Part shown: positions 116 to 18,610 of the stretch, piece after piece
Position numbering within the stretch: position 1 is the stretch's first letter
Layout of the letters: each line of letters starts with the position of its first letter
Source: a virus
DNA: 19,087 nucleotides
Virus record (IMG/VR): IMGVR_UViG_3300043386_000006
Location: 1-19,087 of that record
Direction: 5' to 3' (one strand)
Program-made: the position numbers and the translations under genes
Notes under the pieces: generated by a model
What the model saw: the letters and a program-made list of their open reading frames with translations, nothing else
What the model was told of the DNA's origin: nothing
Database searches by the model: none

Positions 116-568
116 CAGACTCTGGACGATCTGGGCCCTGAGGTCCCGGTCGGTGTACGGCTCGGGGAACTGTTCGGCACCTGCGGGGTTGCCGGAGCGG
201 TCCGCGGCCGCTTCCGGGTCGTCCGGCTGGTCGTCGTGGCTGGTAATCAAGGGTTGTCCACCTTCCGGGTGAATGTCCGATGCATCATAATTGTCGTTTT
301 GGTGCAGTGGTTCGCCCTGGATATCGACGTGGCTGTCCGGGCCGATGCACGGGCACAGAGTGCAGTCCCCGGCCTCGTCGTGGTCGCTCTGTTTGTGCTG
401 GCACCCAAGGTTGGCGCACTCAGGTTCGGTGATCACGTAATCCGCCTTTTGATGTAGTCCCTCAAACTGCCTCATATGCCACCGGTCGATACATGGCCGT
501 TCGTCACCATCGAGCATCATCAGCACCGCGCCGGAACGGCCGCACGTAGGACAGCGGCCGGCCGTCAT
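1..568 (-). CDS. Hypothetical Cys-rich, acidic protein: N-terminal part of an ORF that crosses the window junction and continues at 18972..18644 (298 aa in total)
   Basis: Not in the ORF track because it has no stop inside the left edge. Hand translation of the minus strand from ATG 568..566 gives MTAGRCPTCGRSGAVLMMLDGDERPCIDRWHMRQFEGLHQKADYVITEPECANLGCQHKQSDHDEAGDCTLCPCIGPDSHVDIQGEP... There is an in-frame stop just upstream (586..584) and an ATGA overlap with the stop of the 565..759 gene. Third codon positions are mostly G/C. The frame runs through the 115-bp repeat into track ORF 18644..18982, and 568+329 nt = 897 nt = 299 codons. Confidence 0.75.
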   Translation of the reverse strand, partial: MTAGRCPTCGRSGAVLMMLDGDERPCIDRWHMRQFEGLHQKADYVITEPECANLGCQHKQSDHDEAGDCTLCPCIGPDSHVDIQGEPLHQNDNYDASDIHPEGGQPLITSHDDQPDDPEAAADRSGNPAGAEQFPEPYTDRDLRAQIVQSLSGLESDYDVDGIITDYQARWQLTPFDALDSAGERLVPA

Positions 569-759
569 GCGCCGTGCCTCAGCTCAAACCACCGATTCGG
601 CCAGATGCGCCACCCCTCAGCCCGTCTGAAGTAGCCCTTGTTGATCCGGACGGGATGGAGCAGTCCGAACGTGTGCGGCTGGTGAGCGACCAGGGTGTCA
701 TTGCAGGCAACGTACCGGCGCCACGCCGCCGCGCGTCGCCGCTGCCGGGCCCGGCTCAC
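565..759 (-). CDS. Hypothetical small basic protein (64 aa from GTG 759; alternative ATG 777 gives 70 aa)
   Basis: This is the C-terminal part of track ORF 565..864: ...SRARQRRRAAAWRRYVACNDTLVAHQPHTFGLLHPVRINKGYFRRAEGWRIWPNRWFELRHGA. It has a GTGA overlap with the stop of 756..983 and an ATGA overlap with the start of the junction-spanning ORF. The upstream 30 codons of the track ORF are Pro/Arg-rich and overlap the previous gene. Confidence 0.55.
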   Translation of the reverse strand: MSRARQRRRAAAWRRYVACNDTLVAHQPHTFGLLHPVRINKGYFRRAEGWRIWPNRWFELRHGA

Positions 760-983
760 GGCCGTACCGCCCTGCATACGCACTCGCAGACGTGCGGGGC
801 CCGGCGTGGGCGGTAGCAGCGGCACATGAACATCGTGCCGATCTCCTGCCAGCGCCGGCCGCATGCCTCCCGCGGAGCTTCGGCCGCAGGATTTCCTGTC
901 CGGGGTGCGGAGCTCGCGGGCTCCGACAGGAGATTTTGCGGCGCCGGCGCCATCCGGGCGCCGGCGTCGAATGGTCCGGTCAT
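756..983 (-). CDS. Hypothetical 75-aa protein with a Cys-rich C-terminus (MFMCRCYRPRRAPHVCECVCRAVRP); contains repeat copy A
   Basis: This is the internal ATG (983) of track ORF 756..1025. There are ATGA/GTGA overlaps at both ends. Third positions are mostly G/C except across the embedded hairpin element (codons caa aat ... gca ... aca gga aat cct). Confidence 0.45.
   Translation of the reverse strand: MTGPFDAGARMAPAPQNLLSEPASSAPRTGNPAAEAPREACGRRWQEIGTMFMCRCYRPRRAPHVCECVCRAVRP
885..942. repeat. Copy A of a roughly 58-bp hairpin element, degenerate, in opposite orientation to copy B at 12642..12699
   Basis: The 36-nt core 888..923, aggatttcctgtccggggtgcggagctcgcgggctc, is identical to the reverse complement of 12660..12695. 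The flanks match with a few substitutions. The second arm (ccgacaggagatttt) has diverged, so the stem is imperfect. Confidence 0.9.
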
Positions 984-1078
984 CCTCGAAACACCCCGCC
1001 GGCGTACCAGCTGTAAACCGCGCACGCGGCGAGGAACGCGGCCAGCGTGACGAGGCGGAACCTCTCGCGCCCGGTCAT
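980..1078 (-). CDS. Putative 32-aa single-pass membrane peptide
   Basis: MTGRERFRLVTLAAFLAACAVYSWYAGGVFRG. ATG 1078 overlaps the stop of 1075..1425 (ATGA) and its stop overlaps ATG 983 (ATGA). It has a hydrophobic core. It is short, so support is weak. Confidence 0.4.
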   Translation of the reverse strand: MTGRERFRLVTLAAFLAACAVYSWYAGGVFRG

Positions 1079-2509: not shown

Positions 2510-2555
2510 GCCCACATCTTGACAGGCGTGCGCTTCCAAGCGCAACGTGGTCCGC
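2510..2555. promoter_or_regulatory. Divergent control region with putative overlapping face-to-face promoters and a central dyad
   Basis: Plus strand: TTGACA 2519..2524, 18 nt, CAACGT 2543..2548, 7 nt, ATG 2556. Minus strand: TTGCGC (2545..2540), 18 nt, CAAGAT (2521..2516), 6 nt, ATG 2509. Dyad GCGCTTccAAGCGC lies at 2530..2543. There is no Shine-Dalgarno before either ATG, consistent with leaderless mRNAs. Hexamers are only partial matches. Confidence 0.35.
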
Positions 2556-2903
2556 ATGTTTGACACACTGAAGCTTCCCGATGACCCGACCCCCGGCGAT
2601 TTGTTCCGCGCGATCGCGGACTGGTACGACGGCAATCCGCAGCTGCACATGCCGACCGTGACGCTCAACGACCACCACGTCTACCACCGGCCGGACTACG
2701 CGACCGCGATGGACTACCTGTACGCCGTCGTGCAGTCCAACGTGTCGGATATCCACCACAACAGCGGGTGCCGGTACGCCGCCGTGGACCTGTCCCCGGT
2801 GGCAGGGCCGGGCCGGGTGCGGCTGAACGTGTACGCGCCGCTGCACGCAGGGTGCGACATCGTCAACACCTGTCACCACCCATCGCACACCGAAGAGTCC
2901 TAA
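2556..2903 (+). CDS. Hypothetical protein (115 aa from ATG 2556; GTG 2547 is possible)
   Basis: MFDTLKLPDDPTPGDLFRAIADWYDGNPQLHMPTVTLNDHHVYHRPDYATAMDYLYAVVQSNVSD... Third positions are strongly G/C. His-rich. No family was recognised. Confidence 0.7.
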   Translation: MFDTLKLPDDPTPGDLFRAIADWYDGNPQLHMPTVTLNDHHVYHRPDYATAMDYLYAVVQSNVSDIHHNSGCRYAAVDLSPVAGPGRVRLNVYAPLHAGCDIVNTCHHPSHTEES

Positions 2904-3067
2904 TGGCGCACGACGGGGTGATATCCGCGCGGCTACTGCGGTTGTTCGGCCCGGACGTTGCGGACTGGCCGGCGGTCCGTCTGCCCGATGAGATCACCGA
3001 TATGGACCCGGCGTCCTATGTCGGCATCGACCTGGACCCGGCGCGGCGCGGGCAGGTGCCGCGGTGA
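2903..3067 (+). CDS. Hypothetical small protein (54 aa)
   Basis: This is the internal ATG of track ORF 2768..3067. It overlaps the previous stop (TAATG). MAHDGVISARLLRLFGPDVADWPAVRLPDEITDMDPASYVGIDLDPARRGQVPR. G/C third positions. Confidence 0.55.
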   Translation: MAHDGVISARLLRLFGPDVADWPAVRLPDEITDMDPASYVGIDLDPARRGQVPR

Positions 3068-3276
3068 AGCGGCCGCCGTACGTGCCGCAGCACGCGCACC
3101 GGTCGCCGTGGCCTGTCGACCAGCGGGCCCGGTCGCTCGAGGAACCAGAACCGGCCCGGGTCGACCCGATCCGGTACCTGATCGTCGTCGTCGTAGCCGC
3201 GGTGATCGCCGGCACGGCGGCCGGCGTGCTCGCGGTCGCGTTGGCCGGGCCCGGCCCGGTGTGGGTGTGGCCGTGA
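3064..3276 (+). CDS. Putative single-pass membrane protein (70 aa)
   Basis: GTGA overlap with the previous stop. Hydrophobic segment IRYLIVVVVAAVIAGTAAGVLAVALAG. Confidence 0.55.
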   Translation: MKRPPYVPQHAHRSPWPVDQRARSLEEPEPARVDPIRYLIVVVVAAVIAGTAAGVLAVALAGPGPVWVWP

Positions 3277-3446
3277 CCGCCCCGTACCCGGCCGGGTACC
3301 GGCGCTGCCCGATCTGTCAGGCGTACATCGGGGCGCCGTGCACGACCGCAGCACAGGCGATCATCGACGGGGTGGTGACCGGATCGGGCGTTCAGCTCGA
3401 TCACCCGCACAAGGCCCGGAAGGTTCGGGCGGGCTGGGAAGACTAG
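3273..3446 (+). CDS. Hypothetical small protein with a CxxC-x8-C zinc-ribbon-like motif (57 aa)
   Basis: GTG 3273 overlaps the previous stop (GTGA). MTAPYPAGYRRCPICQAYIGAPCTTAAQAIIDGVVTGSGVQLDHPHKARKVRAGWED. GTG 3261 and 3267 are alternative starts. Confidence 0.5.
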   Translation: MTAPYPAGYRRCPICQAYIGAPCTTAAQAIIDGVVTGSGVQLDHPHKARKVRAGWED

Positions 3447-3455
3447 ACCGGCCAG

Positions 3456-3503
3456 CACAGATCGGCCCGGCACCCAATCGGATGGGTGCCGGGCCGATCT
3501 GTG
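3456..3503. terminator. Bidirectional stem-loop terminator between the convergent plus operon and the minus-strand lysis genes
   Basis: Perfect 20-bp stem cacagatcggcccggcaccc / gggtgccgggccgatctgtg with an 8-nt loop aatcggat. It sits 10 nt after the stop at 3446 and 110 nt after the endolysin stop. There is no U-tract, which is common in high-G+C actinobacterial terminators. Confidence 0.7.
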
Positions 3504-4859: not shown

Positions 4860-5441
4860 TTACGTCGGGTAGGCGAGCTTGAGCTCAAACGTGCTGGCGA
4901 ACTGGAACGACAGTGCGGTCAGCTGCGCGACGGCTGCGCCGTTCGTGTGCTGCGTCATCAGCTCGAGATAGTCGGTGCTCCCGTTCATGAACACGGTGAC
5001 CGGGGTGACCGGGAGCATGTTCGTCGACGCGATCTGCACGGACGGCAGCGGCGGTTTCGTCGCCGGCGGTATGGCCGTTGACCCGTTCTGCCGGATCCAC
5101 GAATACATGGTGATGTAGTCGGTCCGGTTGCCGAGTGCGACCGCCCCCCAAACTTCGTACCAGCCCTGAATGGTCGGGGTGAGCCGAGTGTTGTTGGTGA
5201 CGGTGTCGTGCCAGTTCGACGCGTCCAGGGTCTCGCTGGACGCGCCGAACTGCAGCGCCGTCGCAGTGTTGTGCGCGATGCTCTGCGTGGCCTGCGCGAC
5301 CAGCCGGGCCCGCGGCCGGGAGTCGACCGAGGCGACATCAGCGTCGATCGCGGTGGCCAGGTTCTGGAAGTAGGCGGCTAGCTGGTCGACAGTGTCGGTG
5401 AGCTGCGGGTACGGGTAGCCGCGCGCAGTGTTTGCGGTCAT
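4860..5441 (-). CDS. Minor tail protein / candidate receptor-binding protein (193 aa)
   Basis: The N-terminus MTANTARGYPYPQLTDTVDQLAAYFQNLATAID is the kind of conserved anchor seen in actinophage minor tail/fibre proteins. The C-terminal half is beta-rich. It is the last gene of the tail block. Confidence 0.6.
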   Translation of the reverse strand: MTANTARGYPYPQLTDTVDQLAAYFQNLATAIDADVASVDSRPRARLVAQATQSIAHNTATALQFGASSETLDASNWHDTVTNNTRLTPTIQGWYEVWGAVALGNRTDYITMYSWIRQNGSTAIPPATKPPLPSVQIASTNMLPVTPVTVFMNGSTDYLELMTQHTNGAAVAQLTALSFQFASTFELKLAYPT

Positions 5442-11650: not shown

Positions 11651-11995
11651 CTACTCCCTCTCACTCGTGATCAAAATCCCGTATACCGGGCTGTTGTCGA
11701 CACCCAAATTGGCCGGCTCATAAGCGGTCACCCACGTCACCGGTCGCAGCGCGGTCAGGACGTCGTCAATGTGGTCGTCGACCCATGCGTCCGCGGCCGC
11801 CTCACCCTGCGGGGTGACGATCACGATCCGCCACACGTGATCGAACCCGCCGGCGCTGTCGTCGCCGCGATCGGCCTGCCACCGTAGCCACGCGTCCCCG
11901 GTCCGCGGCGTCGACGGCCGGGCCGGGTAGCACTTGACCCCGTCGATCGTGTTGAGCGCCGCAGTGATCTCGGCCCGCGCGGTCGCGATGCTCAC
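11651..11995 (-). CDS. Head-tail connector / tail-terminator-like protein (114 aa)
   Basis: Track ORF 11651..12187 is trimmed to GTG 11995, which has a GTGA overlap with the adaptor stop. VSIATARAEITAALNTIDGVKCYPARPSTPRTGDAWLRWQADRG...VYGILITSERE. It lies directly upstream of the major tail gene. The upstream track codons are Arg/Ala/Pro-rich. Confidence 0.5.
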   Translation of the reverse strand: MSIATARAEITAALNTIDGVKCYPARPSTPRTGDAWLRWQADRGDDSAGGFDHVWRIVIVTPQGEAAADAWVDDHIDDVLTALRPVTWVTAYEPANLGVDNSPVYGILITSERE

Positions 11996-12582
11996 CTGCC
12001 GACCAGCTTCCGGAACGGCCGTTCGAACCGGCGGATTTCCTGGTCGAGAGTCGGGACCACCGACAGTGACCCGTCTTCGGCGCCGGGCACGGTCAGCGCG
12101 GGCTGACCGCGCATGATCAGATTGCGCCAGCAGCGGCGCAGCAGCGCTTGCCGCAGGTCCGGCGGGTACGCCGCCGGCACGTCGCACACGCGGCGCTGGG
12201 CGTTCGTCTCGGCGTCCAGGGCGTCGGCCAGTTGGTCATCAGTCCAGCTGTGATCCTCGAGGTACTCCGCCACGTCGACGATGGTGGGCATGTCCGCCGC
12301 GGTGACGACCCCGGTCACAAACGCGGTGAAGTCCACCGCACCGTGGCCGGTGGTGACGGCCCGGGCGATGTGCCGGCCGGGGGCGGCCACGATGTACTCC
12401 GCCCGGTACCAGCCGCACCCGTCGACCGCGACGGTCGGTACATCGGTGGTGGCGTCCGGCCGGGTCACCGTGACCACAGGCACGTCGCCGGCCAGTTCGT
12501 CGCCCTGCACGGCGATCACCCACAGGCCGGACACCGGCAGCTCAACGCTCGTCGCGGTTTTCGCCGTGATCGTGCTGGCCAC
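11992..12582 (-). CDS. Head-tail adaptor (gp6/gp15-like C-terminal part) with an N-terminal beta-rich extension of roughly 85 aa (196 aa)
   Basis: Track ORF 11992..12678 is trimmed to GTG 12582, which is preceded by GGGAAGGGGGG. The C-terminal segment MPTIVDVAEYLEDHSWTDDQLADALDAETNAQRRVCDVPAAYPPDLRQALLRRCWRNL reads like phage head-tail connector/adaptor proteins. The track N-terminus would run through the intergenic hairpin. Confidence 0.6.
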   Translation of the reverse strand: MASTITAKTATSVELPVSGLWVIAVQGDELAGDVPVVTVTRPDATTDVPTVAVDGCGWYRAEYIVAAPGRHIARAVTTGHGAVDFTAFVTGVVTAADMPTIVDVAEYLEDHSWTDDQLADALDAETNAQRRVCDVPAAYPPDLRQALLRRCWRNLIMRGQPALTVPGAEDGSLSVVPTLDQEIRRFERPFRKLVGR

Positions 12583-12600
12583 GGGCCCCCCTTCCCTACG

Positions 12601-12640
12601 GATTACCGGATTGCGATTACCGGTAATCCGATAATCCGCG
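12601..12640. repeat. Cluster of direct and inverted GATTACCGG / CCGGTAATC motifs, including a perfect 14-bp palindrome
   Basis: gattaccgg at 12601..12609 and 12615..12623. Palindrome gattaccggtaatc at 12615..12628. Related ccgataatccg at 12628..12638. It is locally A/T-richer than its surroundings and lies between hairpin B and the adaptor SD. Confidence 0.85.
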
Positions 12641-12641
12641 G

Positions 12642-12699
12642 CCGAAGGATTTCCTGTCCGAGCCCGCGAGCTCCGCACCCCGGACAGGAAATCCTTCGG
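12642..12699. terminator. Copy B of the hairpin element: perfect 19-bp stem, 20-nt loop, in the head/tail intergenic gap (candidate terminator, attenuator or processing site)
   Basis: ccgaaggatttcctgtccg (12642..12660) pairs perfectly with cggacaggaaatccttcgg (12681..12699). The loop is agcccgcgagctccgcaccc. It starts 8 nt after the stop of 12707..12946. There is no U-tract. Confidence 0.6.
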
Positions 12700-12706
12700 T
12701 TCTTTC

Positions 12707-12946
12707 TCAGCTGTCCCCGGTCCGCTTCGGGGTCCGCTTGCGGCCGGCGGCCGCGACCGGCTGGTCGTCGGCCGGCTCGGGCGCCTCGCCCTGGTCCTCG
12801 AGCTCCGCCGGCTCGGCCGGGTCGTCGCCGGCGGCCGCGACCGGCTGGTCGTCGGCGCCCTGCAGCACGGCGAGCTGTGCGCGAAGCTCGGCGTTCTCCT
12901 GCTCGAGCTCGGCCACCCGTGCCCGGGTCTGCGCGATCTTCGCCAT
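12707..12946 (-). CDS. Small coiled-coil / acidic Pro-rich protein with an internal repeat (79 aa); possible scaffold- or decoration-like head protein
   Basis: MAKIAQTRARVAELEQENAELRAQLAVLQG, then ADDQPVAAAG twice. An exact 30-bp DNA repeat occurs at 12743..12772 and 12827..12856. It lies directly after the capsid gene. Confidence 0.65.
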   Translation of the reverse strand: MAKIAQTRARVAELEQENAELRAQLAVLQGADDQPVAAAGDDPAEPAELEDQGEAPEPADDQPVAAAGRKRTPKRTGDS

Positions 12947-12949
12947 GAG

Positions 12950-14764
12950 TTACGCCGCCGTGTTCTGGTCGAAAATGACCTGACGGACGCCGGCGATGTC
13001 CAGGTTGGCCAGTGCGATATCGCCGTAGATGCCCACGGTGACGTGGCTGAGCTGCGGAATGTTCGAGCTCTGCACGGTCGCGCCGAAGTTCCAGTCGAGA
13101 CGCTCCGGAGCGCTCGCCCACCCGCGGACCTTGGCCGGGTCGAACATCCAGCTGTTGACCGACGTGTTCCCGCCGGCCGAACCGAGGGCCCACGCCGGCA
13201 CGGCGAGCACGCCGGCGACGTTGAGCGTGGCGAACAGCTCGGCCGCCGTGCCGTTGGCGTTGGTCGGGTTCAGCCGCGGGTACAGCGGCCGGCCGGCGTC
13301 GTCGGTGACCCGGGTCAGCAGCCGGTACAGCGCCTGGTGCACGGCGAACGCCCGGAAGCGGTTGCCGCCGCGGGTGAACTGCAGATCGGCAATCGCTGCC
13401 TCGAGCGACGCGGCGGACGCCTGGTCGTTGTCGTTGGTCGGCACGGCCGGCGACCCGGTCACCGTGATGTCGGTGGCCGCGGTCAGCGTGTTCAGGAACG
13501 TTGCGACTGCGGCTTCCCGGTCTTCGAAGTACTCGCGCAACATCTGATCCCACAGGATCCCGGAGAACTGCGGGCTGCCGCCGGCGCGCCAAGACTGGCG
13601 CTCGATCTCGACCTTGCCCCACACCTGCGTAGGGGTGACCGTCTGCGACGTGACTTGCATGTTTCCGGGCGCCGGCTCGGTGCCCGGGGTGGCCGGTCCG
13701 ACCAGGCCGGAAGACGAGTCGTACTTCGGAAGGTCGAACTTCCGGCCGTCCGTCGACCCGGAGTTGATCATGTTCCACAGCGGGGTGGCGTAGTCCATCT
13801 GCGGTTGCCACAGGTCCGGCCGGTACTGGTTCGGGGTCAACGCCAGGACGTCGGCGGCGTCGACTGCGAACGCGGCCCGGATCAGCGCGTTGACCCGGTC
13901 CTGTGCGGCCTGCTTCTCCGGCCCGGACGACGCCGGGTTGATCGCGGCGAACACGTCGGTGGAGAAGTCGTGCTCGGCCGCGGCGGAGAAAACGTGCTTG
14001 CCGTCGACGCGAGCGAACCGGTACGGCAGCGCCTCGACAACCTGGGTGGTCGCGACCGGGCGGTTGCCGTTGACGATCGGCCGGGCGGCCGGCGCCGGGG
14101 TCGTGGTCGGCAGGATGCCCACGCCGCCGGCGATCAGCGCCTGGACCTGCTCCGCGCTGAACATGACCGGTACGGGCGCGGCCGGCTCGGCGGCCGGCTG
14201 CGTGATGGTGGCGGTCACGGCCGGCGTGGTGGCGGCCGCCGCGGTGTCCTCGGTTGTTTCCTCGGTGCCCGGCATGCCGGCCCCTTCCTCGTGGTAGCTG
14301 ACATTGATGATCCGACTGTCGTCGAAAGCGGGGTCGCGTACGTGCCCGGCGCCGGTGAGGTTGGCCAGCGTGACCAGCCGCACCCCGGGCTCGGCCGGGT
14401 CGCGGCCGAAGTCTGCAGTGTCCATCTCGAGCTCGGCGCTCAGGCCCGTCTTTTCGCCGGTCGCGGCGAGCGCGAGCGCGCGGTCACCCGCCGGACCCGG
14501 GTCGATCTTGAACGTGACGATCAGCCCGAGCTCGGTGTCCTGGACGTCTATGGCCCGGCCCAGCCGTTGCGCCTGGTCGTGCTCGTCGTTGAGCCGCAGG
14601 TACTTCGCGTGCCCGTAGACGATGCTGCCGCGGCTGAACCGCCAGCGGCGGCCGCTCTTGTGCCGGCCGATCGACCCCCACGGGATCAGCACGCCGGTGA
14701 TCGTGCGGCGCTGGATGTCGGCTGAGAACTGCTCGGGTATCAGGTCGAATGCAACGGCTTCCAT
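12950..14764 (-). CDS. Fused prohead (HK97-type S78-like) protease and major capsid protein (604 aa)
   Basis: The N-terminal roughly 170 aa, ...TITGVLIPWGSIGRHKSGRRWRFSRGSIVYGHAKYLRLNDEHDQAQRLGRAIDVQDTELGLIVTFKIDPGPAGDRALALAATGEKTGLSAELEMD, follow the prohead protease pattern (L..eHd...lG....d..GL.v.f.....g...l.l...G...glS.e). An Ala/Pro/Thr linker follows, then a roughly 400-aa capsid-size C-terminal region. The start shares 1 nt with the portal stop. Confidence 0.8.
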   Translation of the reverse strand: MEAVAFDLIPEQFSADIQRRTITGVLIPWGSIGRHKSGRRWRFSRGSIVYGHAKYLRLNDEHDQAQRLGRAIDVQDTELGLIVTFKIDPGPAGDRALALAATGEKTGLSAELEMDTADFGRDPAEPGVRLVTLANLTGAGHVRDPAFDDSRIINVSYHEEGAGMPGTEETTEDTAAAATTPAVTATITQPAAEPAAPVPVMFSAEQVQALIAGGVGILPTTTPAPAARPIVNGNRPVATTQVVEALPYRFARVDGKHVFSAAAEHDFSTDVFAAINPASSGPEKQAAQDRVNALIRAAFAVDAADVLALTPNQYRPDLWQPQMDYATPLWNMINSGSTDGRKFDLPKYDSSSGLVGPATPGTEPAPGNMQVTSQTVTPTQVWGKVEIERQSWRAGGSPQFSGILWDQMLREYFEDREAAVATFLNTLTAATDITVTGSPAVPTNDNDQASAASLEAAIADLQFTRGGNRFRAFAVHQALYRLLTRVTDDAGRPLYPRLNPTNANGTAAELFATLNVAGVLAVPAWALGSAGGNTSVNSWMFDPAKVRGWASAPERLDWNFGATVQSSNIPQLSHVTVGIYGDIALANLDIAGVRQVIFDQNTAA

Positions 14765-16031: not shown

Positions 16032-17612
16032 CTAGGTGGAACGCGGCCGCGGCCGCAGATAGGTCACCGACGTGTCCGCGGGCAGCGTCCGGGCGAGGTG
16101 CGCCGCGCCGGCCGCGGCGTACAGCGCGTCGCAGTCGCCGGCGCCGCGCCGGGAGAACACCCACGCGTCGCCGCGGGGGAGTTTCTCGGCGGTGTCTACC
16201 TGTCCATCGATCAGCGGTTCGGGCCCGCGCTGTACCTGGATCCCGTCGACCAGGGCGGCGAACCCCAGACACACCGCGGTCAGCTCGCCGCGGATCTCCT
16301 CCACCGCCACGCCGCGCGGCGGCCACACCCCGGGGCGGTTGGTGGACAGAGCGGACATGACCGCGGCCGCCGGCCCGGCCGGAAGCACGCCGAACGCCCG
16401 CGGTTTGAGCCGGCCGATCAGCCCCGGGAGCTCACGGCCGGCGCGGTCTGCGCACCCCGGTCCGACCCATTCGCGGACGGCGCCGATGCGGACCTTGCCG
16501 TCCGCCTGCTCCGCGGCGGCGTACAGCGTGGCGTGTTGCATGCTCGGCGCCACGTCGAAGCACATCGCCACTCGTCCGCGCAGGTCAGCGAACTGAACGG
16601 CTTGCATGGTGATCGTGAGGCACTCTTTCCACGCGGCGCCGTTGATCGCGGGGTCCATATGGCTCGCGGTGATGCACATCGCTTCGGTCTTGAACCCGGA
16701 CAGCGCGTCGCCGCCGGCGGCCACCGCGGTCCGCGCCTCGTTGACCAGGTCCTCAAACGGGTACCGGTGGCCGGCGTTCGGGTTGGCGTAGGCGAGCTGC
16801 CGACGATCGAGAGGATCGGCGTGTTCCTCGGCGGACCACTCGAGCAAACACATGCGGTCGTCGCCGTCCCGGGCCGCAATGTGCTGGACCGCGGCCGCCC
16901 GGAAGTCATTGAAGACGATCGATCGGGCGTCCAGGGGGGTCGTCAGTCCCCAGTACTGGGCGTCCGCGACGGCGCGCATGGCGTAGTACGCCGCGTTGTA
17001 CGCCCCGTAGCTGAACTGCCTGGACAGTTCATCGGCGATGACACGATTCAATGTCAGCGACCGGCCACCCTCCTCGTTGGACGGCGTGATCACGTACCGG
17101 CCGCCGGTGGTGGTGGTCCACTGCTCCTCACCGGCCTTGCGGCGCATCCCGCGGAGCTTCCCGGGCGGTAGCTCCGGCTCGAGCTCGGCGCACTCGAGCG
17201 CCATTTTGTGCGCCTTTGCCCAGGGTTCCGCGGCGTATTTCGTCTGCGTGCTGGTGCCGAGGATCGTCTCTTGCCCCTCGACGAATAGCCAGTACAGGAC
17301 CAGCACGATTAGCAACCACGTCTTGCCGTTCTGCCGCGCGACCACGATCAACACCCGCCGGAACCGCGGCCGGCCGTCCGGCAGTAGCTCGCCGGCGTGG
17401 ATCGCGGCGAGACGCTGCCACGGATCCAGCGGCGCGCCCAGGGTGTCCCGGGCGAAGTCGACCACCTCAAACCCGTACGACGTGTCACGGGTCAGCGCGC
17501 ACCCGCACCCGCACGGCCCGGGCGGTCCGGTGACGTTGGGCGGGGTCATGAGCCGCGGCATCGTCTCGCCGACCAGGACCTCAGGTTCCGGCGGCTCGAT
17601 CGCGAGGCTCAC
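16032..17612 (-). CDS. terL: Terminase large subunit (526 aa)
   Basis: Walker A-like VVARQNGKT and Walker B-like LNRVIADE lie in the N-terminal half, followed by a nuclease-size C-terminal half. The GTG start overlaps the terS stop (GTGA). Confidence 0.9.
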   Translation of the reverse strand: MSLAIEPPEPEVLVGETMPRLMTPPNVTGPPGPCGCGCALTRDTSYGFEVVDFARDTLGAPLDPWQRLAAIHAGELLPDGRPRFRRVLIVVARQNGKTWLLIVLVLYWLFVEGQETILGTSTQTKYAAEPWAKAHKMALECAELEPELPPGKLRGMRRKAGEEQWTTTTGGRYVITPSNEEGGRSLTLNRVIADELSRQFSYGAYNAAYYAMRAVADAQYWGLTTPLDARSIVFNDFRAAAVQHIAARDGDDRMCLLEWSAEEHADPLDRRQLAYANPNAGHRYPFEDLVNEARTAVAAGGDALSGFKTEAMCITASHMDPAINGAAWKECLTITMQAVQFADLRGRVAMCFDVAPSMQHATLYAAAEQADGKVRIGAVREWVGPGCADRAGRELPGLIGRLKPRAFGVLPAGPAAAVMSALSTNRPGVWPPRGVAVEEIRGELTAVCLGFAALVDGIQVQRGPEPLIDGQVDTAEKLPRGDAWVFSRRGAGDCDALYAAAGAAHLARTLPADTSVTYLRPRPRST

Positions 17613-17977
17613 CCCTGCTCAGCACGCTTGCGGCGCTGCTCCGCGACGCGGTCACGCTGCAGCTCGAGCGCCGTTTTCGGTTTGTCGGCCGGCGCCTGAA
17701 CGCCCTTACCCGACATTTGCGCCCGGGCATGGGGGGTCAACCCCAGGGCGGTCAGTGCCTGCCGGTACTCGGCGGCGAGCTTGACCACGGTCGCCGCCTC
17801 GAGCTCGGCCCGCTTGCCGGCGCCGTCGTCATCCTCGCCAGGCTCCCGGTCGGTCTGGCGTGCCCGGTCGATCAACTGTGCTAATCGGCGTGCTAGCGCC
17901 TGGATCGCCGTGTCTTCCGGGAGTCCCGGACGGGCCTTGACCGCGGCCGCGAACGCCCGTTCCTGGACGCCGGCCAT
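17609..17977 (-). CDS. terS: Terminase small subunit (122 aa)
   Basis: Small helical, charged protein immediately upstream of terL. ...KLAAEYRQALTALGLTPHARAQMSGKG... with a basic C-tail resembles P27-type small terminases. Confidence 0.7.
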   Translation of the reverse strand: MAGVQERAFAAAVKARPGLPEDTAIQALARRLAQLIDRARQTDREPGEDDDGAGKRAELEAATVVKLAAEYRQALTALGLTPHARAQMSGKGVQAPADKPKTALELQRDRVAEQRRKRAEQG

Positions 17978-18078
17978 CGTCAGAGTCCCGACTCACGGGG
18001 GGGAAAAAAAGGCCACTCGGGCGTGGGTGTTCGGGGGCAGGCCATACGGAAAAATCGGACACACACGATCATCGTGCA
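17978..18078. other. HNH-terS intergenic region; candidate packaging (cos) site region
   Basis: A 101-bp gap in an otherwise overlapping gene train. It contains G7A7 (17997..18010) and the 13-bp palindrome cacgatcatcgtg (18064..18076). In HNH-dependent cos phages the cos site normally lies just upstream of terS. Confidence 0.35.
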
Positions 18079-18366
18079 TCACCACCTTGTCACTACCGAT
18101 GCGCGCGCATTGCGTGCTCGCGCATCCTCTGCCCTACCTGGGTCCCCCACCTGTAGGTTGCACGGCTGACACGCGCTGACCAGGTGCGATGGATCATCCA
18201 CCCCACACCCACGGCACCGACCCTTGCCGTGCACGTGGTGCACCTGGGTAGCTGTGCCCGTGCACACCCCACGTGCCAGCTTGCAGCGGTAGCCATCGCG
18301 CTGCAGCACGGCAGCGCGCACCGTACGCCACCGCCTCGAGCTGCCACGCGCCCACGCCTTACTCAT
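18079..18366 (-). CDS. HNH endonuclease (95 aa)
   Basis: RRWRTVRAAVLQRDGYRCKL...TQVHHVHGKGRCRGCGVDDPSHLVSACQPCNLQVG has the Cys pairs plus the His...Asn pattern of phage HNH nucleases. Its position just before terS is typical. Confidence 0.85.
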   Translation of the reverse strand: MSKAWARGSSRRWRTVRAAVLQRDGYRCKLARGVCTGTATQVHHVHGKGRCRGCGVDDPSHLVSACQPCNLQVGDPGRAEDARARNARASVVTRW

Positions 18367-18572: not shown

Positions 18573-18610
18573 CGGCCCGGCCACTCTGGCGTACCAGGGT
18601 GGCCGGGCCG
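18573..18610. terminator. Strong intergenic stem-loop after the junction-spanning ORF
   Basis: cggcccggccac (18573..18584) pairs perfectly with gtggccgggccg (18599..18610). The inner extension is ctgg/ccag around the tetraloop cgta, with one T-G apposition. There is no U-tract. Confidence 0.5.

What the first reader, a model, noticed from the sequence alone, without database searches (positions are those of the whole stretch)
12642..12699. Perfect 19-bp-stem hairpin at the head/tail module boundary, duplicated in opposite orientation 7.2 kb upstream on the same transcript, with complementary 20-nt loops
Copy B (12642..12699) and copy A (885..942) share a 36-nt identical core and about 58 nt of overall similarity, but in opposite orientation. 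The stems are self-complementary, so orientation is defined by the asymmetric loop: agcccgcgagctccgcaccc on the plus strand at B and gggtgcggagctcgcgggct on the plus strand at A. On a single leftward transcript the two loops, and the whole 36-nt core, are therefore perfectly complementary to each other. That is a kissing-loop or long-range duplex geometry. It would bracket the entire early-distal + HNH + terminase + portal + capsid segment (about 7.2 kb through the circular junction). Possible roles are a terminator/antiterminator pair, an RNase III processing duplex that sets capsid versus tail mRNA stoichiometry, a shared protein-binding site, or a small REP/MITE-like mobile hairpin. I know of no described system that matches this arrangement in small actinophages.
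Basis: partly seen in the sequence, partly recalled or inferred. Interest (0 to 1): 0.72.

Follow-up and report, generated by a model that had tools for sequence, protein, structure and literature searches.

The report
Twice-inserted hairpin in small actinophage
A 58-base palindrome that folds into a long hairpin does occur twice, in opposite orientations, in this 19-kb phage genome. The phage's relatives lack both copies, so it is most likely a recently copied terminator-type hairpin and not a built-in long-range RNA switch.

Summary
Copy B (12642-12699) has a perfect 19-bp stem and a 20-nt loop. Copy A (885-942) is an inverted copy with an identical 35-36-nt core. Both lie in gaps between leftward genes of a circular 18,972-bp siphophage, 7.2 kb apart through the junction.

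The headline interpretation, a kissing-loop or long-range duplex bracket, is not supported. Loop complementarity follows automatically from inverting a hairpin. Copy A folds poorly on the leftward transcript. None of about 24 related loci has such a pair.

Four relatives conserve the neighbouring motif TATCGGATTACCGGTAAT at the head-to-tail gap but lack B. B is therefore a roughly 68-nt lineage-specific insertion. A sits in a window-specific block of about 410 nt. No other copy was found in viral, genome, metagenome, phage or plasmid collections, so there is no evidence of a REP/MITE-like family.

My best reading is a duplicated transcript-punctuation hairpin (terminator, attenuator, 3' stabiliser or RNase III site), one of several intergenic hairpins in this genome. 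B has a U-tract only on the antisense strand. The function is inferred, not shown. Interest is low to moderate.

The parts
12642..12699 (-). Copy B: hairpin with a perfect 19-bp stem (21 bp in the MFE structure) and a 20-nt loop. It lies 8 nt after the stop codon of the last head-module gene.
   Evidence: -45.7 kcal/mol, z = -5.5 on the - strand; -42.1, z = -6.4 on the + strand; zero matches expected by chance.
885..942 (+). Copy A: inverted copy of B. The 35-36-nt core (5' arm plus loop) is identical. The 3' arm has diverged: 3 G.U pairs, 1 compensated pair and 1 mismatch when read as + strand RNA.
   Evidence: (I1). Folding: + strand -47.7 kcal/mol, z = -4.1; - strand -32.6, z = -0.9.
12700..12707 (+). 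T-tract TTCTTTCT directly after B on the + strand. It makes B a canonical hairpin-plus-U-tract terminator only for antisense (rightward) transcription. It is not part of the repeated unit.
   Evidence: only 18 of 18,972 + strand positions start an 8-mer with at least 6 T, and one of them abuts the hairpin..
12599..12638 (-). Conserved motif CGGATTATCGGATTACCGGTAATCGCAAT... between B and the ribosome-binding site of the 196-aa head-tail gene. It is probably a promoter or operator. It folds as a second hairpin in the window.
   Evidence: present in L029, L035, L036 and L037.; single copy in the window.
12707..12946 (-). 79-aa coiled-coil gene, the last gene of the head module. Its stop codon is at 12707-12709.
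   Evidence: GC3 0.95. N-terminal homology to the 56-aa gene of L029.
11992..12582 (-). 196-aa head-tail gene, the first gene after B. It starts with GTG at 12582, preceded by GGGAAGGGGGG.
   Evidence: 196-aa homologues, and P0124 is the same protein.
939..969 (.). GC-only hairpin (12-bp stem, 1 mismatch) abutting A. On the leftward transcript it comes just before A.
980..1078 (-). 32-aa predicted membrane peptide gene. Its start overlaps the stop of the 119-aa gene (ATGA). Its own stop lies 37 nt upstream of A on the leftward transcript.
   Evidence: 50% identity over 40 aa to L029 4489-4608, where a 29-aa gene is called.
565..759 (-). 64-aa gene downstream of A on the leftward strand. Its stop overlaps the start of the 298-aa gene (ATGA). 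It is absent from L029.
   Evidence: three homologues of 61-64 aa.; no match in L029.

Best explanation
The element is a lineage-specific hairpin cassette of 58-64 nt that has been copied to two intergenic sites of this phage in opposite orientations. Each copy most likely acts locally as transcript punctuation. Copy B was inserted between the stop codon of the last head gene and a conserved regulatory motif ahead of the tail genes. On the coding (leftward) transcript it forms a 21-bp RNA hairpin. Such a hairpin could attenuate read-through weakly. More likely it gives the head mRNA a protected 3' end or an RNase III processing site. On the opposite strand it is a canonical hairpin-plus-U-tract terminator that would stop antisense transcription entering the head genes. 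Copy A is a partly degenerated copy at the boundary between the first early genes and the next gene block, next to a GC-rich hairpin. Shown: the anatomy, the positions, the absence from relatives and the strand asymmetries. Inferred: every functional step, meaning termination, stabilisation or processing.
For: Both copies lie in non-coding gaps just downstream of stop codons on the leftward strand.

The genome carries other long, tail-less hairpins at gene-block ends. One is 3456-3503, a 21-bp perfect stem between the convergent gene sets. Another is 18573-18610, after the 298-aa gene.

B is missing from L029, L035, L036 and L037. All four keep the flanking motif TATCGGATTACCGGTAAT next to, or 2-20 nt after, the stop codon of the last head gene. 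B is therefore an insertion of about 68 nt.

A lies in a window-specific block of about 410 nt that holds the 64-aa gene and a 220-nt spacer. This block is absent from L029.

Unrelated hairpins occupy the same head-to-tail gap in L003 and L004.

The T-tract abutting B on the + strand is improbable by chance, roughly 0.001-0.003.

The differences between A and B preserve pairing: 1 compensatory pair and 3 G.U pairs.

Long-stem hairpins after structural genes are routinely read as terminators in actinophages (PMC4351075). Tail-less terminators were reported for phiC31 by Ingham et al. 1995, a paper cited in PMC3993855.
Against: There is no U-tract on the coding strand at either copy. Purified mycobacterial RNA polymerase does not terminate at U-less hairpins in vitro (PMC3993855).

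The 20-nt loop and 19-bp stem are larger than in typical intrinsic terminators, and the consensus scan did not call either site.

On the leftward transcript A is no more stable than shuffled sequence.

Most relatives manage with no hairpin at this junction, so it is dispensable.

No transcript data exist. With only two copies, covariation has no statistical power (243 of 500 shuffles do as well).
Confidence: 0.5

Rival explanations
1. The element is a selfish or neutral small palindromic mobile element (REP/MITE-like, or a captured foreign terminator) with no role for the phage. It inserted twice and is tolerated only in intergenic DNA.
For: The repeated unit is the hairpin alone, with no flanking homology (I1, 64 nt). 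B is a clean indel relative to four relatives. A lies in a variable, window-specific block. The stem is only 58% G+C in a 68% G+C genome, which hints at a foreign origin.
Against: There are only two copies. No other copy was found by exact 35/36-mer, stem-pattern, 22-mer or 20-mer loop scans of viral, genome and metagenome collections. BLAST against GenBank phages and PLSDB plasmids found nothing. There is no target-site duplication, no terminal inverted repeat beyond the stem, and no transposase or RAYT gene in the window. The scans needed exact matches, so diverged copies could have been missed.
Confidence: 0.2
2. The two copies act as the same-sense RNA on opposite strands: A on a rightward (antisense) transcript and B on the leftward mRNA. 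In a related variant, B together with the conserved antisense GATAAT box 7 nt upstream is a self-contained antisense small-RNA unit of about 65 nt. The shared loop GGGUGCGGAGCUCGCGGGCU would then be a common recognition site. This resembles nutL/nutR or putL/putR, which occur in opposite genome orientation.
For: The identical core is the 5' arm plus loop in the A(+)/B(-) sense. All three transition differences give G.U pairs in A(+) RNA but C.A mismatches in A(-). A(+) folds at -47.7 kcal/mol (z = -4.1) against -32.6 (z = -0.9) for A(-). B(+) is a canonical terminator. The antisense strand of the conserved motif reads CCGATAATCCG just before B.
Against: No + strand gene or consensus promoter lies upstream of A. 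No -35 box lies at proper spacing for the GATAAT box. Three of three transitions on one strand has a chance probability of about 1 in 4 to 1 in 8. Neither copy is present in relatives. No Rfam family matches; the only hit is a sub-threshold miRNA-hairpin match.
Confidence: 0.1
3. A and B pair with each other on one 7.2-kb leftward transcript, by a kissing loop that extends to a 36-64-bp duplex. This creates an RNase III substrate or a terminator/antiterminator switch that sets head versus tail expression.
For: There are 36 nt of perfect complementarity and 64 nt at 88%. Cofolding gives -116.9 kcal/mol against -70 for the two separate hairpins. Both sites are intergenic on the same coding strand.
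Against: The complementarity follows automatically from inverted duplication and is not an independent observation. No relative has it. B's local hairpin is very stable and forms co-transcriptionally. Other hairpins, and a hairpin-plus-T-tract site, lie between the two copies (18573-18610 and 18002-18080), so a single transcript is unproven. Ribosomes would traverse the 7 kb in between.
Confidence: 0.06
4. The element functions at the DNA level. The two copies are binding sites for a dimeric protein, or they form an inverted-repeat pair that allows recombination to invert the 7.2-kb head segment.
For: A 44-bp inverted repeat at 97.7% identity is long enough for homologous recombination. Relatives show historical inversions of packaging genes: TerL in L009 and TerS plus TerL in L031-L033. 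L009 has a hairpin at its inversion junction that weakly resembles the element (24 bits, E about 0.01).
Against: Inversion would turn the head genes against the only evident leftward transcription flow. Gene order is colinear with L029 and L035. No recombinase or invertase gene was found. Perfect 19-bp arms separated by 20 bp are unlike known operators. The resemblance to the L009 hairpin is within chance.
Confidence: 0.08

Closest known systems
Tail-less ('I-shaped') Rho-independent terminators of actinophages and actinobacteria (phiC31 early region: Ingham, Hunter & Smith 1995, Nucleic Acids Res 23:370, cited in PMC3993855), and the stem-loop terminators annotated after structural genes in mycobacteriophages (PMC4351075)
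   Same: A long hairpin directly after a stop codon at a module boundary of a high-G+C actinophage, with no U-tract on the coding strand. Several such hairpins occur in the genome.
   Different: The stem (19-21 bp) and loop (20 nt) are unusually large. The only U-tract is on the antisense strand. The same sequence is present twice in opposite orientation. The activity of U-less hairpins is disputed (PMC3993855).
RNase III processing and retroregulation hairpins (phage T7 intergenic R sites; lambda sib). This comparison is from general knowledge.
   Same: An intergenic RNA duplex of at least 20 bp just 3' of a highly expressed structural gene block. It could leave a protective 3' hairpin or trigger decay.
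   Different: No cleavage data exist. There is no conservation in relatives. The internal-loop features of T7 sites were not examined.
PeSL promoter/stem-loop cassettes of T4-type phages (Arbiol et al. 2010, PMC2839356; Comeau et al. 2014, PMC4122927)
   Same: Short repeated regulatory stem-loops in intergenic DNA next to lineage-specific genes. They are associated with insertion and deletion differences between close relatives.
   Different: PeSLs occur in many direct copies, include a sigma-70 promoter, and lie in hyperplastic regions. Here there are two inverted copies, no promoter in the repeat, and a different phage lineage.
REP/BIME and MITE-like small palindromic repeats of bacterial genomes (from general knowledge)
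   Same: An imperfect palindrome of about 60 nt, intergenic, in either orientation, with the hairpin as the unit of repetition.
   Different: These families have tens to hundreds of copies per genome, and REPs have an associated RAYT transposase. Here there are two copies in total and none in any database searched.
lambda nutL/nutR and HK022 putL/putR (from general knowledge)
   Same: One RNA hairpin element present twice in a phage genome in opposite genomic orientation.
   Different: Those elements lie on divergent early transcripts, so both are read in the same sense. Here both copies lie in a block of co-directional genes, so the mRNA reads them in opposite senses. No antiterminator gene was identified.

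Membership tests
Canonical intrinsic (Rho-independent) terminator | A stable G+C-rich RNA hairpin immediately followed by a 7-9-nt U-rich tract on the transcribed strand | tested here: not met
   On the coding (-) strand B is followed by CCGCGGAUUAUC and A by CCGAAGCUCC. On the + strand B is followed by UUCUUUCU, so the feature is met only for antisense transcription at B. The consensus scan called neither site.
Canonical intrinsic (Rho-independent) terminator | Located at the 3' end of a gene or operon on the strand where it has the U-tract | tested here: not met
   No + strand gene ends at B. The + strand ORFs there are antisense shadows of the 196-aa gene.
Tail-less actinobacterial terminator or 3'-end hairpin | A strong hairpin without a U-tract, just downstream of a stop codon and ahead of the next expression unit | tested here: met
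   B lies 8 nt after the stop at 12707-12709. A lies 37 nt after the stop at 980. The same pattern is seen at 3456-3503 and 18573-18610.
Tail-less actinobacterial terminator or 3'-end hairpin | Produces transcript 3' ends in vivo or in vitro | not testable with these tools
   This needs Term-seq or in vitro transcription. The literature is divided (PMC3993855 versus Ingham 1995).
REP/MITE-like mobile palindromic repeat | Many dispersed copies in the same genome or in host genomes | tested here: not met
   There are two copies in the window. There are none in viral contigs, genome contigs, metagenome contigs (one chance coding hit), GenBank phages or PLSDB, or the window plus 23 loci searched with a covariance model. 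The collection scans required exact matches.
REP/MITE-like mobile palindromic repeat | Target-site duplication, terminal inverted repeats, or an associated transposase or RAYT | tested here: not met
   The flanks share only trivial GC-rich bases. No transposase-like protein was found in Pfam or PHROGs scans.
Functional long-range RNA-RNA interaction or kissing-loop pair | Complementarity between two distant sites on one RNA | tested here: met
   36 nt are perfectly complementary and 64 nt are 88% complementary. Cofolding gives -116.9 kcal/mol. This follows automatically from an inverted duplication.
Functional long-range RNA-RNA interaction or kissing-loop pair | Conservation or covariation of both partners across related genomes | tested here: not met
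   Both partners are absent from the nearest relative, L029. B is also absent from L035, L036 and L037. No analogous dispersed duplicated hairpin was found in 19 related loci.
RNase III processing site | About 20 bp or more of near-continuous dsRNA in an intergenic region | tested here: met
   B(-) has a 21-bp continuous helix. A(-) does not.
RNase III processing site | Cleavage by RNase III | not testable with these tools
   This needs an enzyme assay or 5'/3'-end mapping in wild-type and rnc-mutant hosts.
nut/put-type antitermination RNA | Copies read in the same sense on transcripts from early promoters | tested here: not met
   All surrounding genes are leftward, so the mRNA reads A and B in opposite senses. 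No rightward promoter was found upstream of A.
Known RNA family (Rfam 15) | A match at or above the gathering score | tested here: not met
   The only match is a 35-bit hit to the mir-3660 hairpin model, whose gathering score is 70.

The most novel reading that the evidence does not exclude
The two copies really do pair on a single 7.2-kb leftward transcript, or a short antisense RNA made from B pairs with the mRNA. The pairing forms a perfect RNA duplex of 36 bp or more. RNase III cuts it, which physically excises or uncouples the whole replication-packaging-head mRNA segment from the tail mRNA. That would be a lineage-specific, recently evolved long-range RNA switch in a minimal actinophage.
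Probability: 0.06. Interest if true: 0.7.

Novelty: new member of a known kind. Interest (0 to 1): 0.27.

Why it matters
If the best reading holds, the element is ordinary phage transcript punctuation with one instructive feature. A terminator-type hairpin has been copied within a 19-kb genome, so a regulatory stem-loop has spread to a new intergenic site and the event can still be reconstructed by comparison with relatives. This bears on how small phages acquire and shuffle regulatory cassettes (compare the PeSLs of T4-type phages). It also bears on the unresolved question of whether U-less hairpins terminate transcription in high-G+C actinobacteria. B is a clean natural test case because it is canonical on one strand and tail-less on the other. 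The work also exposes a conserved motif at the head-to-tail junction of an uncultured family of about 19-kb Micromonosporaceae-type phages, and that motif is probably the more important regulatory element there.

Tried and rejected
(1) Near-identical phage in GenBank: none found by megablast of the whole window. Only distant capsid-protease fusions of Gordonia and Arthrobacter phages were found.

(2) Copies of the element elsewhere. The exact 35/36-mer, a gapped stem pattern, an arm-loop 22-mer and the 20-nt loop were scanned across viral, genome and metagenome collections. BLAST was run against phages and plasmids. Nothing related was found. The ten viral hits to TTCCTGTCCG...CGGACAGGAA are a coding coincidence (FLSG...TGQE). 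The single metagenome hit is a chance 22-mer in an unrelated gene.

(3) Covariance model R1 built from A(+) and B(-): no convincing hit in relatives. The best is L009 389-455, at 24 bits and E about 0.01. It is a hairpin between convergent TerS and TerL genes with vaguely similar arms and a GAGCTCGC loop. I left this as inconclusive.

(4) Rfam and tRNA/tmRNA searches: nothing found.

(5) CRISPR repeat or solitary repeat unit: rejected on reading the sequence. The element is a 58-nt palindrome in two inverted copies, with no repeat-spacer layout.

(6) Telomere-resolution or cos/pac site: rejected. The centre is asymmetric and there is no protelomerase. In HNH phages the cos site is expected in the HNH-TerS gap.

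(7) Hairpin as part of a gene: rejected. The long ORF 11992-12678 that starts inside B is an artefact. The true start is GTG at 12582.

(8) Function of the neighbouring genes (298 aa, 119 aa, 64 aa): no Pfam or PHROGs hits. A search for relatives of the 298-aa protein in viral contigs failed. The one viral homologue of the 64-aa gene (L034) has no hairpin upstream.

(9) Covariation statistics: two sequences give no power.

Full report
**What the window is.**
The first 115 bases equal the last 115, so the contig is a circle of 18,972 bp with 68% G+C. Third-codon-position G+C analysis and profile searches show one long leftward (- strand) gene series:
- HNH endonuclease, 18079-18366
- TerS-like protein, 17609-17977
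- large terminase, 16032-17612
- portal
- prohead protease / major capsid fusion, 12950-14764
- a 79-aa coiled-coil protein, 12707-12946
- a 196-aa head-tail protein, 11992-12582
- major tail protein, tape measure and distal tail genes

A short rightward block lies at about 2547-3446.

Protein relatives are numerous uncultured genomes of about 19 kb, plus prophage-like regions in Micromonospora, Asanoa and Actinoplanes chromosomes. GenBank phages are only distantly related.

**Check of the observation.**
Copy B is exactly as described. It has 19 perfect base pairs (12642-12660 with 12681-12699) around a 20-nt loop. Copy A (885-942) is an inverted copy. The repeat finder gives 64-nt arms at 88% complementarity. 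A 35-mer core occurs exactly twice, once on each strand, and none is expected in shuffles. BLAST gives 44 nt at 97.7%. The 7.2-kb distance through the circular junction is correct.

A's stem is imperfect. Against B it shows 14 unchanged pairs, three G.U pairs, one compensated pair (C-G versus A-U) and one C.C mismatch. The G.U pairs exist only in + strand RNA, so the strands fold differently:
- A as + strand RNA: -47.7 kcal/mol, z = -4.1
- A as leftward mRNA: -32.6 kcal/mol, z = -0.9
- B on the - strand: -45.7 kcal/mol, z = -5.5
- B on the + strand: -42.1 kcal/mol, z = -6.4

**Local anatomy.**
B starts 8 nt after the stop codon of the 79-aa gene. It is followed on the leftward strand by a 40-nt motif, then the ribosome-binding site and the GTG start of the 196-aa gene.

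I refined the gene map around A.
- The 119-aa gene (1075-1434) is ATGA-coupled to a 32-aa membrane-peptide gene (980-1078). That small gene has a homologue in relative L029.
- A 220-nt spacer follows. It holds a GC-only hairpin (939-969) and A.
- A 64-aa gene (565-759) comes next. It has three database homologues of 61-64 aa. It is ATGA-coupled to a 298-aa cysteine-rich protein that runs through the junction.

Both copies therefore sit just downstream of stop codons, in two of the few non-coding gaps of the leftward gene series.

**Comparative evidence.**
I fetched 18 related viral contigs through the capsid protein. I then fetched the closest genome, L029 (capsid 75% identical, about 75% nucleotide identity, colinear). 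Through the 196-aa protein I fetched L035/L036 (about 71% nucleotide identity) and L037.

All four of these closer relatives carry TATCGGATTACCGGTAAT between the last head gene and the 196-aa gene. In L029 and L037 this motif lies within 2 nt of the stop codon (TGA-C-CGGATTATCGG...). Only the window has GAAAGAA + hairpin + CCG in between. B is therefore an insertion of about 68 nt, lineage-specific, next to a conserved element.

The region holding A (spacer plus the 64-aa gene, about 410 nt) has no counterpart in L029. There the small membrane-peptide gene overlaps the next gene directly. The one viral homologue of the 64-aa gene has no upstream hairpin.

Self-comparison of 19 related loci found no other genome with a dispersed duplicated hairpin. 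A covariance model of the element found only the window's own copies. The best other hit scored 24 bits with E about 0.01, in L009. Unrelated hairpins do occupy the head-to-tail gap in L003 and L004, but most relatives have none.

**Search for copies elsewhere.**
- The exact 35/36-mer is absent from IMG/VR and from 185,579 species-representative genomes.
- A both-arms pattern with a free loop is absent from those genomes.
- A looser stem pattern in viral contigs hit only a conserved coding sequence.
- A 22-mer in metagenomes hit one unrelated gene.
- The loop alone is absent from viral contigs.
- BLAST against GenBank phages and PLSDB plasmids gave nothing.
- Rfam gave only a sub-threshold generic hairpin hit.

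The REP/MITE prediction of many scattered copies is not met. The collection scans required exact matches, so this is not a full exclusion.

**Strand asymmetry and terminator features.**
Neither copy has a U-tract on the coding strand. On the + strand B is followed immediately by TTCTTTCT. Only 18 of 18,972 + strand positions begin an 8-mer with at least 6 T, so this adjacency is unlikely by chance. In form, B is a canonical intrinsic terminator pointing against the flow of the genes. The T-tract belongs to the inserted segment at B but not to the repeat shared with A.

The other obvious punctuation hairpins of this genome also lack U-tracts. These are 3456-3503 between the convergent gene sets and 18573-18610 after the 298-aa gene. 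Tail-less hairpins are thus the norm here.

The literature is divided. Tail-less terminators were reported for actinophage phiC31 (Ingham et al. 1995, cited in PMC3993855). Purified mycobacterial RNA polymerase, however, requires a U-tract (PMC3993855). Long stem-loops after structural genes are commonly annotated as terminators in mycobacteriophages (PMC4351075).

**The long-range pairing idea.**
Cofolding the two sites as they appear on a leftward transcript gives -116.9 kcal/mol. The separate hairpins give -25 and -45. This would be true of any inverted copy of any hairpin. Complementary loops are the definition of the inversion and are not extra evidence.

Several points count against a designed interaction. 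It is absent from every relative. A(-) is weak. B's local helix is stable and forms first. Further hairpins and a hairpin-plus-T-tract site lie between the two copies. The intervening 7 kb is translated. I put this reading at about 6%.

**Best explanation.**
The element is a terminator-type hairpin cassette that has been duplicated within this lineage and now sits at two gene-block boundaries. Each copy acts locally, if it acts at all. On the mRNA, B is a 21-bp helix suited to 3'-end protection or RNase III processing, and at most weak attenuation. On the antisense strand B is a canonical terminator. A is a decaying or strand-specific copy beside another hairpin.

The non-uniform divergence could reflect RNA-level selection on the + strand, a short gene-conversion tract, or chance. 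All six differences between A and B lie outside the 36-nt core. Five are in one arm and four preserve pairing. The data cannot separate these options.

Rivals are a functionless mobile palindrome (0.2), a same-sense or antisense-RNA element (0.1), a DNA-level site or inversion substrate (0.08), and the long-range duplex (0.06).

**Verdict.**
The proposed mechanism is not supported. The element is a new member of a known kind (intergenic terminator-like hairpins and duplicated regulatory stem-loops), unique to this genome as far as public data show. Interest is low to moderate (0.27). The conserved junction motif noted in passing is arguably the better lead.

Noticed in passing
window 12599-12638; L029 11974-11991; L035 5072-5089; L036 5071-5088; L037 134-151: The motif TATCGGATTACCGGTAAT(N2)CAAT is conserved as a single copy in the head-to-tail gap of five genomes that are otherwise only 62-75% identical. 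It contains the 12-bp palindrome ATTACCGGTAAT and repeated CGGATTA half-sites. It is probably a clade-specific promoter or operator for the tail genes. Its antisense strand reads GATAAT just before hairpin B.
   Followed up: partly
L006 9914-9951; L009 5368-5471; L010 3055-3068; L016 (5 sites, including 5332-5369); L017 3179-3192: A different 14-bp perfect palindrome, GTTTCACGTGAAAC, recurs 1-5 times per genome in another subgroup of the same phage family. In L016 and L009 it occurs in tandem at the same head-to-tail gap. It looks like an operator system for a phage regulator.
   Followed up: partly
window 3456-3503: This is the strongest hairpin in the genome, with a 21-bp perfect stem and a 6-nt loop (about -56 kcal/mol on either strand). 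It lies between the end of the leftward gene series (3614) and the rightward block (ending 3276/3446). It has no T-tract on either side and is presumably a bidirectional tail-less terminator.
   Followed up: partly
window 18573-18610: A hairpin with a stem of about 16-18 bp lies 35 nt after the stop of the 298-aa gene and just before the 68-aa gene. It also lacks a U-tract.
   Followed up: no
window 17978-18078: The HNH-TerS gap holds the only T-rich run on the coding strand (CCTTTTTTTCC, 18002-18012) and a hairpin-plus-T-tract site (18058-18080). It is a candidate cos region or terminator.
   Followed up: no
window 12743-12772 and 12827-12856: A perfect 30-nt direct repeat, 84 nt apart, lies inside the 79-aa coiled-coil gene and duplicates the peptide DDQPVAAAG. 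The C-terminal half of this gene does not align with L029's 56-aa homologue.
   Followed up: no
window 980-1078 and 565-759 (- strand): Two small genes are easily missed. One is a 32-aa membrane peptide conserved in L029. The other is a 64-aa arginine-rich protein with only three database homologues (P0121-P0123). Each is coupled to a neighbouring gene by an ATGA overlap.
   Followed up: partly
L009 36-2055; L031 6304-8077; L032 82-1840; L033 91-1879: Packaging genes are inverted relative to the portal and capsid genes in some relatives: TerL alone in L009, and TerS plus TerL in L031-L033. In L009 a hairpin (389-455) sits at the convergent TerS/TerL junction and weakly resembles the element studied (24 bits).
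   Followed up: partly
proteins P0010, P0014, P0015, P0021, P0026 and others: Many relatives encode a single protein of about 1,000 aa that combines portal (PF04860), S78 protease (PF04586) and capsid domains. The window has a separate portal and a protease-capsid fusion. L031-L033 have ClpP-type protease and capsid as separate genes.
   Followed up: no
window 568 through the junction to 18645 (- strand): A 298-aa protein with several Cys clusters (CPTC, CTLCPC, CTEDCPC) has no Pfam or PHROGs match. It corresponds to two separate genes in L029 (124 aa and 200 aa). No recognisable replication or integration gene was found in the window.
   Followed up: partly
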